From Patescibacteria group bacterium (GTDB taxonomy: Bacteria; Patescibacteriota; Minisyncoccia; UBA6257; GWB1-50-10): 45,189 bases of DNA. Numbering within the stretch: the stretch's first letter is position 1; the number at the start of each line of letters is the position of its first letter. Below are positions 1 through 45,189 of the stretch, piece by piece. Position numbers and translations under genes: made by a program. The stretch is from the NCBI GenBank assembly GCA_038065455.1, contig JBBTQX010000005.1, positions 1-45,189 on the forward strand. Reading direction: 5' to 3'. The notes under the pieces are model-generated. The model saw only the letters and a list, made by a program, of their open reading frames with translations, was not told the origin of the DNA and did not search any database.

Positions 1-338
1 GACGCGCAAATGCTAGGCGAAATACTAAAAACCGACGACCTCCCCTCCAAAAAATCCTCCCTCCAAAAAATCTTCGGCTCGAACCTCACACTACAAGCGC
101 GCGAAGGCTAAAGCATTGCTGTTTGTATCTAATCGCTTCGCTCTTAGACAAACAGGGAACGCGCGGCGTGCCCATGAATCCGTGGTTTTTCCTCGATGAG
201 GAAAAACAAAAATTAGGGAAAATCCCTTTGAGTTCTATTTTAGTGCGCGGGAGAGGATTTGAACCTCCAAGCCTTATGCAGGCACCAGCACCTCAAGCTG
301 GCGTGTTTACCGGGTTTCACCACCCGCGCGTATTTTAA
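1..338 (+). pseudogene. C-terminal part of a CPR-type large serine recombinase, interrupted by a 53-nt insertion and reading antisense into tRNA-Leu
   Basis: Frame 1 reads DAQMLGEILKTDDLPSKKSSLQKIFGSNLTLQARE then stops at 109-111. Removing 107-159 restores ...AREARGVPMNPWFFL...SSILVRGRG, which runs into the tRNA 3' end. I recognise this as resembling C-termini of tRNA-associated CPR recombinases; no catalytic domain is in the window. Confidence 0.55.
244..329 (-). tRNA. tRNA-Leu(GAG)
   Basis: Reverse complement folds to a cloverleaf with anticodon arm ccagc-ttGAGgt-gctgg, long variable arm and GGTTCAAATCC T-loop. CCA is not encoded. Confidence 0.93.
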
Positions 339-40332: not shown

Positions 40333-40584
40333 CTACAGGTTATTCAGCTGGTCATCGATATTCTTCATTTCCGCGTCCAAATTGCCCGTATCTATCGAAT
40401 TTAGGTCGTTTTGAATAGCGGCTGTGGTATCGCTCCCCGACTGAATCTGGAGAGAATCCGAAACTCCTCCAATCGGAGCCAGAGACTGGGTATTCTGGGT
40501 AACCGCGAAGTAAACGGCTATGACTACGATTATCGCGACAATGACATAGACAATCGTTTTCATTGGTGATTTTGTTTGGTCCAT
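40333..40584 (-). CDS. Small membrane-anchored hypothetical protein
   Basis: TM helix plus SD....I..DL...D...LD.E....D..L acidic motif. Confidence 0.7.
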   Translation of the reverse strand: MDQTKSPMKTIVYVIVAIIVVIAVYFAVTQNTQSLAPIGGVSDSLQIQSGSDTTAAIQNDLNSIDTGNLDAEMKNIDDQLNNL

Positions 40585-40586
40585 AT

Positions 40587-41516
40587 TTATTGAGTTACTT
40601 CCAATTCATCGACTTTGGGTATCTGGGCAAGGGCAGTGGCGACATTATGCACCGCATCACGCGCCGCCTTTAGCGTGGTTTTTACTGATTCCAAGTCCTG
40701 CCTTAATTGATTCCTCGTGCCAGTCAAATCAGTCCGAAGCGTATTTTCATCGGAGACGGTGGTTGAGGAAGAAACAACCGAGTAGGTTTTGCCGGCTTGA
40801 ACTTGAATTGCCGCGCGAGCATCTTCTATGGCTTTCTTGGCCAAATCGCTCGCCGCATTCACCGCATCCACATTCGCGCCGTTCGCGGCGGCTTTTTGGG
40901 AACGGGACAAAATACGATTCAAGACCGCTTCAATCTGATCGACGGATTTTTTAAAATTATCCATCGCTTTTGTATTCAACGAATTAATGCCGTCAAAAAG
41001 TTTTTCGGCAACCTGTTTTTTTCTCTCGTCTTTCACCGTTTCGAGTCTTTTCTTAAATTCCTCGCGCTTAGTCTCGATTTCTTTCTTCATTTCTTCGCGC
41101 TTTGATTCAAAATCTTTTTTGAATTCTTCCCGTTTCATTTCGAATTCGTTCTTAACCTCTTCCCGTTTATCCTGGAAGGCTTTCAACTGTTCGGGCATGA
41201 GCCGTTTCGCTTCAATCGCGGATTTCACTTCCCCTCGAACGGCATCAAATTTCTCTTTCGTTTCTGTTCGCGTTTCCTTCACCTGCTCGCGAATATTTTC
41301 GGCTTCATCTTTCGTTCGTTCGCGAATATCTTTAACATCTTGCTTTAATTCTTCCCGCACATTTTTCGTTTTTTCCACCGCATCCTTGCGAATATTCTGA
41401 ATCGCCTTTATTGGTGCAACTTCCCTCTCCGTATTATTGCTGGTCTGAGCGAACGCCAAAACCGGCGCGATTACCGCCAGACCCAATGCAATGCTCAAAA
41501 TTTTTCCTTTTTTCAT
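40587..41516 (-). CDS. Secreted coiled-coil hypothetical protein
   Basis: Signal peptide ending AFA-Q; long E/K/R-rich helical repeats. Confidence 0.8.
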   Translation of the reverse strand: MKKGKILSIALGLAVIAPVLAFAQTSNNTEREVAPIKAIQNIRKDAVEKTKNVREELKQDVKDIRERTKDEAENIREQVKETRTETKEKFDAVRGEVKSAIEAKRLMPEQLKAFQDKREEVKNEFEMKREEFKKDFESKREEMKKEIETKREEFKKRLETVKDERKKQVAEKLFDGINSLNTKAMDNFKKSVDQIEAVLNRILSRSQKAAANGANVDAVNAASDLAKKAIEDARAAIQVQAGKTYSVVSSSTTVSDENTLRTDLTGTRNQLRQDLESVKTTLKAARDAVHNVATALAQIPKVDELEVTQ

Positions 41517-41567
41517 ATATTATTTTTATTTTTGACCTTTCTTATATTATAGCAAATCCGATGGTTT

Positions 41568-42281
41568 TTATCTTTTCAGATAATGTTCCAGGGTATAAAT
41601 CCAGTCTTCGTCCTGGCCGCTGTCGTTCGTCTTCTGACCCAGGAGCCATTCCAAATAATTCCGGTCGGTTTTCGCCACTTCTTCTACCTTCTTATCTTTA
41701 TATTTGCCGAAATTGAACAACTTAAAAAGAATTGGTCGGGCCGACACTTCGAGCATTTCCGCAATCGCCTGTTCTTCCGTCCGGCCTTCTTTAATCATTC
41801 TCGCGAGAAGCCGATTGAAAAGACTATGAAGCACGTTCACATCCGCCTCGGCGTCATGAACGTTGGCTCCTTCCACATCTAGCTCGAGATAATAGCGCAG
41901 GAATTGCAATCCGTATTCCGGAATGACGTTATTCGGATCCAAATGGCGCGCGATGCGGAAGGTACAAATGCGCCGGGGAACACTCATCCCCTCGGTCTCC
42001 AACATCGCTGCATCGAATTTGGCATTGTGAGCCACCATAATCCCCTCGTCTAAAAGCACTTGGAGTCCACTCATCATCACACTCCCTTTGAAAGATTTCT
42101 TGTCCTCCAATATTTTATTCGTGATATGTGTGATGCTCATCGCCTTCACCGAAATCGGAATGGGCGGCTTGAAATATTCCGTGAACGTCCCCGCGGAGGT
42201 CTGATAACAGACCTGGCACAGCCGGTCCTTGAAGATGTCATTCCCTGTTGTTTCCGTATCCAGAAAAATAAGTTGATTCAT
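41568..42281 (-). CDS. DEDDh 3'-5' exonuclease (DnaQ/ExoX-like)
   Basis: FLDTETTG, VAHNAKFD, HDAEADV; C-terminal FGKYK...DRNYLEWL domain. Confidence 0.92.
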   Translation of the reverse strand: MNQLIFLDTETTGNDIFKDRLCQVCYQTSAGTFTEYFKPPIPISVKAMSITHITNKILEDKKSFKGSVMMSGLQVLLDEGIMVAHNAKFDAAMLETEGMSVPRRICTFRIARHLDPNNVIPEYGLQFLRYYLELDVEGANVHDAEADVNVLHSLFNRLLARMIKEGRTEEQAIAEMLEVSARPILFKLFNFGKYKDKKVEEVAKTDRNYLEWLLGQKTNDSGQDEDWIYTLEHYLKR

Positions 42282-42298
42282 TCTTCCATGATAATACT

Positions 42299-42329
42299 AA
42301 AATACCCAACCACAAGGGCTGGATATTTT
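42299..42329 (-). terminator. Intrinsic terminator just outside the left inverted repeat
   Basis: Minus strand aaaatatccagcc-cttgt-ggttgggtatttt; both imperfections are G-U pairs on the minus strand. Confidence 0.6.
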
Positions 42330-42333
42330 AATA

Positions 42334-42525
42334 TTGGCGGTGTTTTTTGGGCGAAGTTCGAACATTTTTTGACGAAAATCCGAATTTCGAATTTTAAAAT
42401 CCAATCGCTCGGGCGGGCAAAAAGGAAGGGGGTTGGGGGGAAGGAATTTTTGCCCGCCCTCGCTTTCCGATTCCAATTTTTTTCCGCCGCCGAATTTCGT
42501 GCCAGTTGAAAACTGGCGCGCCGCC
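42334..42525 (+). repeat. Left long inverted repeat (att-like core plus GC hairpin)
   Basis: 42334-42500 is the reverse complement of 44837-45006 except for one extra CGG, followed by a variable 17-nt hairpin and gcgccgcc. Confidence 0.95.
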
Positions 42526-43286
42526 TAATTTATAATCGTATTGATAATCTGTAGAATGTCGTGTTTGTGGTTTTTTGACAGAATACCAAACATTTTTAAC
42601 ATCTCCAAAAATACTTTAATATTGCTCTTTGAGATTTCAAAATAGGCAATTTCTTTTACTTCGGCACATCGTCCGATTAAATTATTTTCTGTTTTTAATT
42701 CTGTAATTGGAAAACATAAATATAACATTGGTTGCGTGCCAACCGCATACTGCTTTTCGGTAATTTTTATTTCGGTAACTATTTCATATCTGTTAAATTT
42801 GTAAATCAAAAGTGGATATTTAACCTGAGTATATTCAAAATCAAATCCGTTTATGTTTTTTTCAATTGGGTGGCTACGATCAATTTGCAACTCAGAATTA
42901 TTATCAATCAAATTTTGTTCTTGTATTGAATTAAGATAAGCAACAACATTTTCCAATTCTTCTTTAGTAATGATGTTCCATTTATAAAAATACCAGATAT
43001 ATTCTGATAATTCGTAAAGTGCTTTGATTTTTCCGTTTGCTCCAATAAATTCAGTTTCGGGTAGCGATGATTCCGCTAGCTTTTCTGTTTCCTTTTTAAC
43101 CACATCATAGCCAATTTGCCATTCAACATAATTGCTCAACAAGAAACCGTCTCTTCTAACTGCAACTGGCGTCCCATACTCATTCACGATTGATCGGTTT
43201 TTAATGCGAATTTTTCCGCTAACAGCGGTTAATAAAATTGGAATTTCAATTTTGTGTTCGTCTTTTTTAATTAAAATTTGTGGCAT
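42525..43286 (-). CDS. R.PabI-family (HALFPIPE) restriction DNA glycosylase
   Basis: SGKIRIK.R....YG, YVEWQIGYD, LYELSE, YPLL, KQYAVG.QPMLY.CFP, FGILS..H..D, recognised from R.PabI/R.HpyAXII homologs. Confidence 0.88.
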   Translation of the reverse strand: MPQILIKKDEHKIEIPILLTAVSGKIRIKNRSIVNEYGTPVAVRRDGFLLSNYVEWQIGYDVVKKETEKLAESSLPETEFIGANGKIKALYELSEYIWYFYKWNIITKEELENVVAYLNSIQEQNLIDNNSELQIDRSHPIEKNINGFDFEYTQVKYPLLIYKFNRYEIVTEIKITEKQYAVGTQPMLYLCFPITELKTENNLIGRCAEVKEIAYFEISKSNIKVFLEMLKMFGILSKNHKHDILQIINTIIN

Positions 43287-44439
43287 ATTTTTTTCCAAAT
43301 TTACTTCCCAACAACTCCCTAAAATAGTTATCTATTTTTAGTTTGGCATCAGGAATTTCTCTAAACTTAAATTTATTTTTTAATATCGGATTTGTATGAA
43401 CGCTTTGGGCGATAAAACATTCTTTTATTTTTCCGAATTTTTCATTATCAATTATTACATCACAATTTCCAATGAAATATGGCATTCTATCCGTATATTG
43501 TTTAAAAATATCAATGTAGCAATAATAAGGCAGTTTTTCCATTAATACATAAACAGTATTGTAAGTATCTTCATTAATAAAAGTTCTGTTTCGTTTAAGA
43601 GCATTTATATCCCTCAGTGTCCAAAACTTTGCTACTGGCTTATCATTTTTATTTAAAAAATTTTTATTTGGATATTTTTGAACGTAGTTGACTATCGTAT
43701 CAAAATCTTTTAAACGAAAGACGCCATCATCCTTTACCTTAAACTGATAATTTTGAATATAATCGTAACCCATTCCTACTTCATCCCTTTTATAAAGGGC
43801 GATCAAAATCGGAAAGGCCATTCCGCGAGAAGTATCAGAAAATTCATGACTGCTTATGATTATCCCGTCAATTAATTTATAGTTTTTGGCGAATTTTGAA
43901 AGCAAGGCAAAATTGGCTTTTTTTATTAAATATGATAAAGGATGCAAAACGCAAACATAATCCGCTTTAAGTTTGTCGTAAGACAACAAAAATGACATAC
44001 CCAAATCTCTAGTTTTTATGTCGGCATCAATTTTGTCCTGAATAGAAGTATCTTTAATGGAATTACGAATTATGGACGTAGTATCGTTATATGGGGGGTT
44101 GCCTATGGTTATAATTTTTTCATCATTCTTAATCGTTAAGCTTGAACGATTAACATTCAAAAGAGAATTTTGGCAGATAAAATCAACTTTGCTAATTATT
44201 TTTTTTGCTTCAGAAATTGCTTTTTGATCGATATCGGCCCCAATCAATCTTTTCGCAATGTTATTTTTTGCCAAAAACGAACCGTAACCACAAGAAGAAT
44301 CTATTATTGAAAAATTTTTAATATCTTTAATATTATTTTGCAAAACAGAATAAGCCAAATCAACAATAACCTCGGAAGTATAATAAGATCCAAGGTTAAT
44401 GGCGTCTATATGATTAAGATGTTTTTGGCTTCTATCCAT
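43267..44439 (-). CDS. N6-adenine DNA methyltransferase (M.HpyAXII/PabI-system type)
   Basis: LGSYYT, DSSCGYGSF SAM motif, GADID, GNPPY catalytic motif in gamma order; overlaps the R gene. Confidence 0.92.
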   Translation of the reverse strand: MDRSQKHLNHIDAINLGSYYTSEVIVDLAYSVLQNNIKDIKNFSIIDSSCGYGSFLAKNNIAKRLIGADIDQKAISEAKKIISKVDFICQNSLLNVNRSSLTIKNDEKIITIGNPPYNDTTSIIRNSIKDTSIQDKIDADIKTRDLGMSFLLSYDKLKADYVCVLHPLSYLIKKANFALLSKFAKNYKLIDGIIISSHEFSDTSRGMAFPILIALYKRDEVGMGYDYIQNYQFKVKDDGVFRLKDFDTIVNYVQKYPNKNFLNKNDKPVAKFWTLRDINALKRNRTFINEDTYNTVYVLMEKLPYYCYIDIFKQYTDRMPYFIGNCDVIIDNEKFGKIKECFIAQSVHTNPILKNKFKFREIPDAKLKIDNYFRELLGSKFGKKYATNFN

Positions 44440-44447
44440 ACAACTTC

Positions 44448-44456
44448 ATTATATCA
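44448..44456 (-). promoter_or_regulatory. Extended -10 promoter for the methyltransferase
   Basis: TGaTATAAT 8 nt upstream of the ATG (near-leaderless). Confidence 0.55.
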
Positions 44457-44495
44457 ATTTTTTCTAATTTTGAATAATCTTTTTTTGACATATTT

Positions 44496-44717
44496 TTATT
44501 TCATTAAATCATCAATGCCAATTCCCAAACCTTTGGCTATTTTTATAACTGTTTGGATTGATGGCTTAGTGATGACATTTGTTTCAATTTTGGTCAGTGT
44601 TGTATAGGGAAGATCGGATTTTCTCGCCAATTCGTCCTGCGTTAAACCCTGCTTATTTCTAAGTAGTTTTATCTTATCCCCAATTGTTTCGTTTTCGTTA
44701 TTGTTTTGACTTTTCAT
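44496..44717 (-). CDS. XRE-family HTH regulator (C-protein-like)
   Basis: IG.KIK.LR...GLTQ.ELA......TL.KIE....PSI.T..KIA..L; upstream of M and R. Confidence 0.9.
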   Translation of the reverse strand: MKSQNNNENETIGDKIKLLRNKQGLTQDELARKSDLPYTTLTKIETNVITKPSIQTVIKIAKGLGIGIDDLMK

Positions 44718-44811
44718 AGTTTCCAAAGTATGATAGTATTAGTATGGGTGCTTGTTTAAGCCTTCATAAATATGATAACAAATATAACGAATTTAATCAA
44801 ACAAATTTCCT

Positions 44812-45006
44812 GGCGGCGCATTTCGCAAAGCGCAATACGAAATTCGGCGGCGGCGGAAAAAAATTGGAATCGGAAAGCGAGGGCGGGCAAAAATTCCTTC
44901 CCCCCAACCCCCTTCCTTTTTGCCCGCCCGAGCGATTGGATTTTAAAATTCGAAATTCGGATTTTCGTCAAAAAATGTTCGAACTTCGCCCAAAAAACAC
45001 CGCCAA
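44812..45006 (-). repeat. Right long inverted repeat
   Basis: Reverse-complement partner of 42334-42525. Confidence 0.95.
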
Positions 45007-45131
45007 AATTCGGAATTCAAATTTCCGCCAAAAATATGGGCGGCGCGAAGCGCCGTCTGTTCTGCATTCCCCCCACAAAATCCTGATTCTGCAAGGATTC
45101 GCCACGCTCCGCGTGGCTCCTCGTTTGCCAA
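44943..45131 (-). pseudogene. Probable C-terminal remnant of a serine recombinase
   Basis: EPRGAWRILAESGF...FWRCFLGEVRTFFDENP resembles C-termini of CPR island recombinases; no open frame upstream within the window. Confidence 0.45.
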
Positions 45132-45189
45132 TACAATTATGAATAATCAAACCAAAAAGTTTTTCATTTATACTCGCAAGTCTACGGAC

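What the first reader, a model, noticed from the sequence alone, without database searches (positions are those of the whole stretch)
42334..45006. HTH-methylase-restriction cassette bracketed by ~170-bp near-perfect inverted repeats: candidate invertible or mobile defence module
Seen: 42334-42500 (167 bp) and 44837-45006 (170 bp) are reverse complements differing by one CGG. Inward of that, each has a different 17-nt hairpin (gccagttgaaaactggc vs attgcgctttgcgaaat) followed by a shared gcgccgcc, so they are homologous but independently diverged ends rather than a simple read flip. The R gene stop codon overlaps the last base of the left repeat. The cargo is markedly AT-rich and carries no transposase. 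The outer end of each repeat encodes WRCFLGEVRTFFDENP; only the right copy continues into a recombinase-like remnant, and only the left is followed by a terminator. Inference: these look like attR-type and attP-type junctions of a serine-recombinase island. Such junctions are normally direct repeats, so the inverted arrangement suggests a flippable cassette or a non-autonomous cargo element mobilised in trans.
Basis: partly seen in the sequence, partly recalled or inferred. Interest (0 to 1): 0.8.

Follow-up and report, generated by a model that had tools for sequence, protein, structure and literature searches.

The report
Restriction cassette inside serine-integrase island
The long inverted repeat is real: it is two copies of one end of a mobile island's attachment site, and it frames a swappable gene slot that here holds a restriction-modification system in a tiny-genome groundwater bacterium.

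Summary
The 171/174-nt inverted repeat is real, and these are its only two copies in the 654-kb assembly. Each arm holds the last 21 codons of a large-serine-recombinase gene plus a hairpin.

- **Left arm:** an attR-type junction, host DNA | TGGCGG | tail.
- **Right arm:** part of a complete, inverted, internal attP-like site. It lies 133 nt upstream of a recombinase gene that starts at 45139 and is cut by the contig end.
- **Far junction:** contig C2 begins exactly with TGGCGG plus tRNA-Ser(GGA), which fits the missing junction.
- **Cargo:** an HTH leader gene, an N6-adenine methylase and a PabI/CcoLI-family restriction glycosylase.

The layout (tRNA | recombinase | inverted spare attP | HTH-led cassette | attR) recurs in 32 of 37 and 30 of 40 related loci. 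Cargo differs between them and breaks at the arm ends.

"No recombinase" and "terminator only on the left" do not.

Flipping is not shown for this population, because the available contigs break at the arms. One identical cassette is flipped between two other genomes.

This scan has met the family before on other DNA. Five literature searches found no description. What the spare attP does remains open.

The parts
41568..42281 (-). Host-side flanking gene: DEDD 3'-5' exonuclease (ExoX/DnaQ-like), 237 aa
   Evidence: PF00929 5.8e-14 and PF20600 1.8e-12; NCBIfam exodeoxyribonuclease X 1.8e-26, below its cut-off. Syntenic at 93% DNA identity in same-genus G004.
42282..42334 (.). Host side (X) of the attR-type junction J3
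   Evidence: Nearly identical to G004 up to the core; similarity drops sharply after it.
42335..42340 (+). Core TGGCGG of junction J3 (crossover region)
   Evidence: Shared by J3, J2 and the start of contig C2. It is the reverse complement of the tRNA-Ser 3' end CCGCCA.
42330..42500 (+). Left repeat arm = P' arm: last 21 codons of the recombinase frame (42335-42397), hairpin 42398-42472, T-run 42477-42483, GC-rich end
   Evidence: Its hairpin core is 98-100% identical to sequence in genomes of other genera.
42501..42525 (+). Arm-specific 17-nt hairpin plus shared 8-nt GC box, left side
   Evidence: Read; the minus-strand transcript folds it as a small stem-loop.
42525..43298 (-). Restriction enzyme of the PabI family (restriction DNA glycosylase type), 257 aa
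   Evidence: PF09522 4.1e-45; PADLOC REase_II 7.9e-17; full-length match to chain 7cfa_A, 'R.Pab1 family restriction endonuclease', 1.8e-59, and to R.PabI 2dvy 6.1e-15.
43267..44439 (-). Type II N6-adenine DNA methyltransferase, 390 aa (NPPY motif in the translation)
   Evidence: PADLOC MTase_II 8.1e-83; PF02384 at its cut-off; translation.
44496..44726 (-). XRE-type HTH leader gene of the cassette, 76 aa
   Evidence: PF01381 2.9e-16; PADLOC control protein 2e-09. 30 homologues (23-75% identity) among 94 small cassette ORFs of related elements with other cargo, 25 of them the first gene on the + strand.
44812..44836 (-). Shared 8-nt GC box plus a different 17-nt hairpin, right side
   Evidence: Read.
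44837..45010 (-). Right repeat arm = P' arm of the internal inverted attP-like site J2
45000..45005 (-). Core of J2 (TGGCGG on the minus strand)
45006..45131 (-). psiP: inverted copy of the recombinase's C-terminal coding end (P arm of the spare attP)
   Evidence: tblastn to residues 500-539 of the G023 recombinase. Nearly identical to the real P arm joined to tRNA-Ser(GGA) in L211.
45139..45189 (+). First 17 codons of the large serine recombinase gene, cut by the contig end
   Evidence: 84% over 43 residues, including upstream translation. Full-length relatives carry Resolvase + Recombinase + Zn_ribbon_recom.

Best explanation
The segment is the cargo slot of a small integrative island moved by a large serine recombinase (LSR).

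**Integration.** The island's attachment site lies inside the 3' end of the recombinase gene itself (P | TGGCGG | P'). Its target is the very 3' end of a tRNA-Ser gene (...CCGCCA). Integration leaves the tRNA whole and clips the last ~19 codons and the hairpin off the recombinase gene. These clipped parts end up at the far end of the island. That far end is the left repeat arm (J3, attR-type).

**Spare attP.** The island also carries a complete second copy of its attP, J2, just upstream of the recombinase gene and inverted. J2 consists of psiP, the core, P' and the hairpin. Its P' half is the right repeat arm. The cassette is therefore framed by two identical, inverted P'-plus-hairpin arms.

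**Cassette.** It is an HTH-led operon. Here it encodes an N6-adenine methylase and a PabI-family restriction glycosylase, which probably act on GTAC.

**What the arms do.** They serve as homology or recombination arms. Between related islands the cargo is exchanged at the arms, and it is occasionally flipped.

**Shown:**
- The anatomy and the junction structure.
- The family-wide layout and the cargo turnover at the arm ends.
- One flipped cassette.
- The J2 core joined to a second tRNA-Ser gene in 3 of 80 loci.

**Inferred:**
- The link from the contig end through about 1.5 kb of missing recombinase gene to the start of contig C2.
- That the recombinase is active.
- GTAC specificity.
- Any role of J2 (operator, second integration site or cassette-exchange site).
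For: **Junctions.**
- The host flank is ~98% identical to same-genus G004 up to TGGCGG. After the core G004 has a diverged tail and other cargo.
- J1, J2 and J3 of two complete islands in G023 share only the core GCGG(TG), with their arms swapped as expected for attL, attP and attR.
- Contig C2 starts with TGGCGG plus the reverse complement of tRNA-Ser(GGA).
- 9 of 12 J1 junctions examined at tRNA-Ser(GGA) read ...TTTTGGCGG|AG.... The P arm of L211 nearly equals the window's psiP.

**Recombinase.** The N-terminus at 45139 matches the G023 recombinase, which carries the three LSR domains.

**Census 1** (46 recombinase genes in 42 loci):
- A tRNA abuts the recombinase 3' end in 34 of 46.
- psiP is present in 37 of 41 testable elements.
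- An inverted arm pair is present in 32 of 37 with at least 2 kb upstream. Median arm identity is 99.8%.

**Census 2** (80 loci, 81-100% identical recombinases from many CPR classes):
- psiP in 58 of 59 testable loci.
- Arm pair in 30 of 40.
- The contig ends less than 500 nt upstream of the recombinase in 36 of 80, as in the window.

**Cargo.**
- Cargo differs between near-identical backbones.
- In 6 of the 7 pairs compared, homology stops within about 20 nt to about 310 nt of the inner arm ends (closest in the first and sixth pairs). In the second pair it stops about 150 nt before the J2 arm's inner end and no arm matches.
- 9 of 10 small leader ORFs tested are HTH_3.
- Other cargo includes type IIG/I-like, type III and TdeIII R-M systems.

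**The same R-M pair elsewhere.** It sits between such arms in independent metagenome contigs L036, L038, L040 and L046.

**Mobility.** In run X9 the cargo differs from the window by 1.8% (36 of 1990) and the host flank by 7.3% (88 of 1200).
Against: - Only 17 codons of the recombinase are on the contig. The rest is not in the bin, so activity and the J1 junction of this copy are unseen.
- No empty site was found. The exonuclease gene occurs only in G004 (occupied) and G342 (other context).
- No circular form was found.
- 5 of 37 and 10 of 40 related loci lack a clear arm pair.
- The R-M pair itself has no flanking inverted repeat in 38 of the 47 metagenome loci with both flanks.
- The abstract of PMC3783163 (seen in the listing) states that serine integrases recombine no att pairings other than attP x attB, or attL x attR with a factor. 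Recombinase-driven J2 x J3 inversion would therefore be unorthodox.
Confidence: 0.85

Rival explanations
1. A dedicated invertible switch. The neighbouring serine recombinase flips the R-M cassette between the two arms at high frequency, giving phase variation of defence, as Gin and Cin flip their segments.
For: - The layout is inverted sites, then the segment, then a recombinase gene just outside.
- Arms stay ~100% identical within elements (16 of 32; 11 of 30).
- Cassettes lie in both orientations across the family (6 of 32).
- One flipped pair, L182/L226.
Against: - The cassette has its own leader gene and no outside promoter is needed, so flipping would change nothing obvious.
- The family recombinases are ~500-aa LSRs, not ~190-aa invertases.
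- 15 of 16 cassette-sharing pairs keep the same orientation.
- All 4 metagenome loci with this R-M pair next to a recombinase have the window's orientation.
- Between L182 and L226 the arms are only 93% identical while the cassette is 99.5% identical. This fits homologous exchange as well as it fits a switch.
Confidence: 0.08
2. A non-autonomous, transposon-like R-M unit. Its terminal inverted repeats belong to the R-M genes, and it was inserted by an enzyme acting in trans (the type of Furuta, Abe and Kobayashi 2010).
For: [quoted passage not shown] The PabI family is known to be mobile (PMC4615327, passages read).
Against: - The arms are halves of the recombinase's own att site and travel with the recombinase backbone, not with the R-M genes. 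The same M-R pair has no inverted repeat in 38 of 47 loci.
- The same arms hold other cargo.
- There is no target-site duplication. The bases outside the two arms differ.
Confidence: 0.04
3. J2 is a functionless fossil. It would be the leftover 3' end of a second, inverted recombinase gene, so the inverted repeat is an accident of decay.
For: In the window psiP is only a 62-codon frame with a weak TTG start. I can assign it no function.
Against: - It is kept in 58 of 59 and 37 of 41 testable elements.
- Their recombinases diverge down to about 35% identity and target at least 9 tRNA species.
- Within an element psiP is ~100% identical to that element's own recombinase end (median 100%). Between elements, P against psiP is about 80%.
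- In 3 of 80 loci the J2 core is joined to a second tRNA-Ser.
Confidence: 0.08
4. Assembly artefact. The assembler folded back on a repeat and no inverted duplication exists in the genome.
For: - The contig ends 179 nt beyond the right arm.
- Contigs of the runs laid stop at the arms.
- The arms exceed the 55-nt overlaps seen between other contig ends.
Against: - The two arms differ by an indel and have different inner hairpins.
- The same layout is seen in 32 + 30 independent loci from many assemblies, three of them counted twice. Several lie deep inside contigs of over 100 kb.
- The same R-M cassette lies between arms in four other metagenome contigs.
Confidence: 0.02

Closest known systems
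Integrative elements and prophages moved by large serine recombinases (phiC31, Bxb1, A118/LI, SPbeta SprA type)
   Same: Family relatives carry the Resolvase + Recombinase + Zn-ribbon domains. A short common core sits between swapped arms at attL, attR and attP. Insertion is site-specific.
   Different: - The crossover lies inside the recombinase's own coding end, so the gene is clipped on insertion.
- The target is the last bases of a tRNA gene.
- A complete second attP is kept, inverted, inside the integrated element.
- No directionality factor was identified.

The named systems' single-attP layout is recalled, not tested here.
R-M units flanked by long inverted repeats (Furuta, Abe and Kobayashi 2010, PMC2853133; passages read)
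   Same: A complete R-M system lies between long inverted repeats and is linked to a rearrangement junction.
   Different: Here the repeats are att-site halves of a neighbouring recombinase island. There is no target duplication, and the arms hold many other cargos.
PabI-family R-M systems (R.PabI, R.CcoLI; abstracts of PMC7229829 and PMC7806768 seen in the listing; PMC4615327 passages)
   Same: R aligns over its full length to chain 7cfa_A, filed as an 'R.Pab1 family restriction endonuclease'. The title of PMC7806768 describes an R.CcoLI crystal structure. That 7cfa is that structure is my inference. R is paired with an adenine methylase, and the pair moves as a unit (170 close relatives in metagenome contigs).
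   Different: This pair is carried in an LSR cassette slot behind an HTH leader gene. Specificity and glycosylase activity were not tested.
Serine invertase switches (Hin, Gin, Cin) and the FLP/2-micron flip-flop (recalled)
   Same: Inverted sites bracket a segment and a recombinase gene sits next to it. The excised circle would hold two inverted att sites that split it into two segments.
   Different: The recombinase is an LSR and the arms are 171 nt. No population-level flipping is shown, and the cassette is self-contained.
SSV1-type archaeal integrases, whose gene is split by integration (recalled)
   Same: attP lies within the recombinase gene, so integration separates the gene's end from its body.
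   Different: Those are tyrosine recombinases and the whole gene is partitioned. Here a serine recombinase loses only ~19 codons, and a spare copy of the end is kept.
Integrons and recombinase-mediated cassette exchange
   Same: It works like a fixed platform with a slot where unrelated cassettes replace each other at defined borders.
   Different: There is no IntI, attI or attC. Exchange may be plain homologous recombination in the conserved arms.

Membership tests
LSR integrative element | Encodes a large serine recombinase (Resolvase, Recombinase and zinc-ribbon domains) | tested here: inconclusive
   Only 17 codons lie on the contig (45139-45189). They and the upstream bases match the G023 recombinase (84% over 43 residues), which has all three domains. 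The rest of the gene is not in the assembly.
LSR integrative element | attL, attR and attP share a short core with swapped arms | tested here: met
   The window's J3 and J2 share TGGCGG plus P'. The C2 start supplies core plus tRNA. Complete sets exist in G023:C2 and G023:C11.
LSR integrative element | An unoccupied attB in a relative that equals host side + core + target side | tested here: inconclusive
   None found. In G004 the site is occupied by another tail and cargo. G342 has the exonuclease gene in another context. G001-G003 have no match.
LSR integrative element | One attP per element; the integrated form holds only the hybrid attL and attR (recalled for the model systems) | tested here: not met
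   A full inverted attP-like site (J2) sits inside the integrated element here. It is also present in 58 of 59 and 37 of 41 testable relatives.
Serine invertase switch (Hin/Gin type) | Small (~190 aa) invertase with short inverted sites (recalled) | tested here: not met
   Family recombinases are 500-560 aa LSRs. The arms are 171/174 nt.
Serine invertase switch (Hin/Gin type) | Both orientations present in one population | tested here: inconclusive
   Every run listed is kept as contigs. In the four runs laid, the contigs end at the arms and cannot show orientation.
Transposon-like R-M unit with terminal inverted repeats (PMC2853133) | [quoted passage not shown] | tested here: met
Transposon-like R-M unit with terminal inverted repeats (PMC2853133) | Short target duplication; repeats belong to the R-M unit; no linked mobility gene | tested here: not met
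   The bases outside the arms differ. 38 of 47 loci with this M-R pair have no inverted repeat. A recombinase gene lies adjacent.
PabI-family R-M system | R of the RE_R_Pab1 family next to a DNA adenine methylase | tested here: met
   PF09522 4.1e-45; 7cfa_A 1.8e-59; MTase_II 8.1e-83.
PabI-family R-M system | GTAC recognition and glycosylase chemistry | not testable with these tools
   The only hint is that the 2336-nt cargo holds no GTAC. About 6 would be expected from its base composition by my arithmetic. Genome-wide GTAC O/E is 0.75, fourth lowest of 16 palindromes.
Integron | IntI tyrosine recombinase with attI and attC sites | tested here: not met
   The recombinase is a serine enzyme. 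The arms are copies of its own att half-site.

The most novel reading that the evidence does not exclude
The spare inverted attP is a working recombination site, which would make these islands a serine-recombinase gene-cassette platform for ultra-small bacteria. The recombinase would use J2 together with J3, or with a second tRNA target, to flip, exchange or re-seat HTH-led cassettes without excising the island.

Hints:
- The J2 core is joined to a second tRNA-Ser in 3 of 80 loci.
- One identical cassette is flipped between two genomes.
- In 6 of 7 compared pairs, cargo turnover is bounded at or near the arms.
- psiP is kept at ~100% identity to the recombinase's own end.
Probability: 0.25. 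Interest if true: 0.8.

Novelty: new variant of a known kind. Interest (0 to 1): 0.62.

Why it matters
- **Contig breaks in CPR genomes.** The layout explains a recurrent cause of contig breaks. Six of the 20 contig ends of this assembly lie in or beside such elements. In 36 of 80 related loci the contig stops just upstream of the recombinase.
- **How defence genes move.** It shows how restriction and other defence genes travel between very distant lineages of Patescibacteria. Recombinases 81-96% identical occur in genomes labelled as a dozen candidate phyla.
- **Possible tools.** The family offers many natural attP/attB pairs aimed at tRNA ends, which could become genetic tools for bacteria that have almost none.
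- **An open design question.** An integrated element that keeps an intact copy of its own attP has, as far as five searches show, not been described.

Tried and rejected
**Reads.**
- All 21 runs listed (20 of which hold part of the stretch) are kept as contigs, not raw reads. In the four I laid, contigs stop at the arms, so orientation could not be counted.
- The joints that skip the cassette (42467>44813, 42524>44815, 42506>44807, 42456>45082) have sides of 22-30 nt and unknown letters between. I take them for other elements that share the arms, not for an empty slot.
- Run X10 covers the cargo but gave no cover on 40500-42226. That is a hole, not a finding.
- Summed depth on the arms and the right end is 20-70 times that of the cargo. 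It mixes other organisms and is no copy number.

**Searches that found nothing useful.**
- R.PabI protein in 60 relatives: no match.
- Remainder of the recombinase in the own assembly: not found. The nearest, on C9, is 36% identical.
- Empty site: not found.
- Circular contigs: none among the 9 short contigs tested.
- Viral contigs: only 26%-identical recombinases.

**Ideas that did not hold.**
- My idea that J1 x J2 inversion restores a full-length recombinase. No locus has a tRNA beside psiP with the cassette on the recombinase's 3' side (0 of 46). The three tRNA-beside-psiP loci lack a cassette there.
- Folding energy of the arm is not better than that of shuffles (z from -1.55 to +1.47).
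- No promoter for the recombinase was picked up between the core and 45139 by the consensus scan.
- Genome-wide GTAC avoidance is unremarkable.
Full report
**1. Observation**

The window is the whole of contig C5 of a 654,420-bp, 10-contig assembly.

The inverted repeat is real.
- Arms 42330-42492 and 44848-45010 are 99% complementary over 163 nt. The repeat continues to 42500 / 44837 across a 3-nt indel.
- BLAST finds only these two copies in the assembly.
- Inward of each arm lies a different 17-nt hairpin and then the same 8-nt GC box.
- The stop codon of the restriction gene overlaps the last base of the left box.

Three minus-strand genes lie between the arms.

| Gene | Coordinates | Evidence |
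|---|---|---|
| XRE-type HTH | 44496-44726 | PF01381 2.9e-16 |
| Type II N6-adenine methylase | 43267-44439 | PADLOC 8.1e-83 |
| PabI-family restriction enzyme | 42525-43298 | PF09522 4.1e-45; full-length match to chain 7cfa_A, 1.8e-59 |

Cargo G+C is 0.26-0.35 against 0.38-0.59 in the 4 kb to its left.

- The hairpin and T-run lie inside both arms, not only the left one.
- A serine-recombinase ORF begins at 45139 and runs off the contig end at 45189.

**2. What the arms are**

Each arm starts at TGGCGG (42335-42340; 45000-45005 on the minus strand). It encodes the last 21 codons of a frame ending WRCFLGEVRTFFDENPNFEF*, followed by a 26-nt-armed hairpin and a T-run.

- **Left arm.** The sequence before the core is the upstream region of a DEDD exonuclease gene. 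It is ~98% identical to same-genus genome G004 up to the core. After the core G004 carries a diverged tail (WRCLLYKVRMYFENNPDAD*) and other cargo. This is the signature of a site-specific junction: host | core | P'.
- **Right arm (minus strand).** The core is preceded by about 125 nt that encode the C-terminal region of a recombinase. That makes it a whole attP-like site (psiP | core | P'), inverted, with its core 133 nt upstream of the recombinase start codon.

**3. The missing end**

The own assembly has no further part of this recombinase.

Contig C2 begins exactly with TGGCGG followed by the reverse complement of tRNA-Ser(GGA). In 9 of 12 related elements examined at tRNA-Ser(GGA), the recombinase ends ...TTTTGGCGG|AG... 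fused to the tRNA end. In L211 the P arm is almost the same sequence as the window's psiP.

I infer this order: C5 end, then about 1.5 kb of recombinase gene, then C2 start. This link is an inference, not an observation.

**4. Complete relatives**

Two islands in G023 show all three junctions:
- tRNA-Ser | core | recombinase on the opposite strand;
- psiP | core | P' just upstream of the recombinase start;
- P' | core | host at the far end.

The only block common to all three is GCGG(TG). It is the complement of tRNA positions about 71-74. The element restores the CCA end. The recombinases carry Resolvase, Recombinase and Zn_ribbon_recom domains.

**5. Census 1**

A search of 301 genomes of the order found the recombinase at E <= 1e-60 in 86.

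From the 139 listed hits I fetched 40. I chose those at least 45% identical whose upstream side was not cut. With L024 and L026 this gave 46 recombinase genes.

By my count of the table:
- A tRNA on the opposite strand abuts the recombinase 3' end in 34 of 46. The species are Ser, Ala, Arg, Leu, Gln, Glu, Ile, Asn/Lys and Val.
- psiP of at least 70 nt is present in 37 of 41 testable elements.
- An inverted arm pair that begins where psiP ends is present in 32 of 37 with at least 2 kb upstream.

| Measure of the arm pairs | Value |
|---|---|
| Median identity | 99.8% |
| Perfectly identical | 16 of 32 |
| Length | 70-397 nt |
| Spacer | 728-6936 nt |

Five loci with enough flank lack the pair.

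**6. Census 2**

A scan of one genome per species found 277 stretches. The best 80 loci carry recombinases 81-100% identical to the G023 one.

Their record titles name Paceibacteria, Saccharibacteria, Uhr-, Nomura-, Kaiser-, Zambryski-, Morani-, Lipton-, Peri-, Shapiro-, Levyi-, Komeili- and Taylorbacteria. A few carry other labels.

- Where a tRNA abuts the recombinase 3' end in these loci, it is a tRNA-Ser.
- psiP is found in 58 of 59 testable loci (median 100% identity over 120 nt).
- The arm pair is found in 30 of 40.
- The contig ends less than 500 nt upstream of the recombinase in 36 of 80. This is the mirror image of what happens in the window.
For three of them the cassette is also identical.

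**7. The slot and its cargo**

Seven backbone pairs were compared.
- In six, homology runs through the recombinase and J2, stops within about 20 nt to about 310 nt of the inner end of the J2 arm, and resumes at a J3 arm.
- In the second pair it stops about 150 nt before the J2 arm's inner end and no arm matches.

Nine of 10 small first ORFs tested are HTH_3, including two at the far end of flipped cassettes.

Larger cargo includes a type IIG/I-like system, a type III system, a TdeIII system and a trypsin-like protein.

The window's HTH has 30 homologues (23-75% identity) among 94 small cassette ORFs. Twenty-five of them are the first gene on the + strand. It is therefore the family's leader gene and not specific to this R-M pair.

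The M-R pair has 170 close relatives in metagenome contigs, of which 80 were kept (83-99% identity).
- The HTH region is not shared with them.
- Of the 47 loci with both flanks, 4 have long arms, 5 have weak ones and 38 have none.

The arms therefore belong to the island, not to the R-M genes.

**8. Orientation**

- In census 1, 25 cassettes read away from the recombinase, 6 read toward it and 1 is mixed.
- In census 2, 20 are leader-first, 5 have a divergent leader and 5 are mainly reversed.
- Among 16 non-redundant pairs of elements that share at least 500 nt of cassette, 15 agree in orientation and one does not.
- The exception is L182 and L226. Their 2299-nt cassette (HTH, 150 aa, 516 aa) is 99.5% identical but flipped. 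Their recombinases are 84% and their arms 93% identical.
- For the window's own cassette, all 4 metagenome loci that show it next to a recombinase have the window's orientation.
- Every listed run is kept as contigs. In the four laid, contigs break at the arms. Flipping in this population is therefore untested.

**9. Is J2 a live site?**

- Within an element, psiP matches that element's own recombinase end almost perfectly. Between elements the same comparison gives about 80%. This means concerted evolution or selection.
- No locus shows a tRNA beside psiP with the cassette moved to the recombinase's 3' side.
- In 3 of 80 loci (L191, L194, L200), psiP | TGGCGG is followed by a second tRNA-Ser on the opposite strand instead of P'. 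There the recombinase is bracketed by two convergent tRNA-Ser genes.
- That places a crossover exactly at the J2 core. It could be J2 x a second attB, or a two-site insertion.
- It argues that J2 can be used as attP. Three loci are few, and the direction of the event is unknown.

**10. Mobility signal in other samples**

In run X9 the contigs over the host flank differ from the window by 88 of 1200 and 34 of 465 bases. The contig over the cargo differs by 36 of 1990. The cargo is therefore younger than the host divergence.

**11. Literature**

Five full-text searches listed no paper that joins CPR/Patescibacteria with large serine recombinases. None describes an internal inverted attP.

- **PMC12455944** (find mode only): holds none of the words recombinase, integrase, tRNA or inverted repeat.
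- **PMC2853133** (passages): describes R-M genes between long inverted repeats.
- **PMC4615327** (passages): describes PabI-family mobility.
- **PabI chemistry and GTAC:** from abstracts in the listing.
- **Rule that serine integrases use no other att pairings:** from the abstract of PMC3783163 in the listing.

Supplements were not seen and could hold element lists that I missed.

**12. Earlier notes of this scan**

Look-ups after I had written down my own reading show that other agents met the same family on other genomes. They also called it undescribed. I re-derived the layout here independently.

This report adds:
- the window's junctions;
- the C2 link;
- the leader-gene finding;
- the flipped pair;
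- the three double-tRNA loci.

**13. Verdict**

The finding is a real member of a widespread, apparently undescribed variant of serine-integrase islands. The 'recombinase-less mobile or flippable module' part is not shown. The open and interesting question is what the spare attP does.

Noticed in passing
window 1-329: The contig starts with the last 36 codons of another recombinase-like frame (ending ...KIFGSNLTLQAREG*), followed by tRNA-Leu(GAG) on the opposite strand at 243-329. This looks like the tRNA-side junction of a second island, also cut by a contig end.
   Followed up: partly
own genome contig C6 25076-25235 and 27766-27922: A second cassette of the same design in this genome. The 160-nt inverted arms are 98.1% identical. 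An 83-aa HTH leader and four further minus-strand genes lie between them. The contig ends about 100 nt beyond the right arm.
   Followed up: partly
own genome C4 52-112; C8 95996-96069; C9 7941-8100; C2 1-90: Further arm-like or junction sequences lie at or near contig ends. Together with both ends of C5 and the end of C6, at least six of the 20 contig ends touch such elements.
   Followed up: partly
L191, L194, L200 (also L201, L222, L234): ARAGORN calls tRNA-Ser-like genes with anticodon ACT beside several islands. That anticodon would be unusual for Ser. It was not examined.
   Followed up: no
L026 5002-5020 and 13560-13590: In G023:C11, 18 nt are identical in inverted orientation between two sites. 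One is the 5' flank plus first bases of the tRNA-Ser. The other is the host side plus core of the far junction. Unexplained.
   Followed up: partly
arms of L024, L126, L154 versus window, L127, L132, L150: The conserved hairpin has a G-rich or C-rich 21-23-nt loop. It sits in either orientation relative to the recombinase tail in different elements, as if the hairpin module itself can turn.
   Followed up: no
window 42501-44836: The 2336-nt cargo holds no GTAC, the site of the PabI family. By my arithmetic from its base composition about 6 would be expected. Genome-wide GTAC O/E is 0.75, unremarkable among palindromes.
   Followed up: partly
L119 / L174, +5538..+9000 from the recombinase start: The type III R-M genes that fill the slot in G023:C11 occur at 86% identity in the G108 locus. 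There they lie outside its arm-bounded slot, beyond the far junction. This could be a neighbouring or tandem cassette.
   Followed up: no
L162, L165, L171, L176, L177, L183, L186 and others: Some genomes with 89-96% identical recombinases are labelled Actinomycetota, Gammaproteobacteria, Bdellovibrionales or Bacteroidia in their record titles. The cause could be mislabelled bins, contamination or real transfer. Not checked.
   Followed up: no
window 40587-41516: A 309-aa minus-strand protein with a signal-like start and a 33-nt periodic, charged coiled-coil repeat (family D1). It gives a weak apolipoprotein-like match below cut-off. It is syntenic in G004.
   Followed up: no
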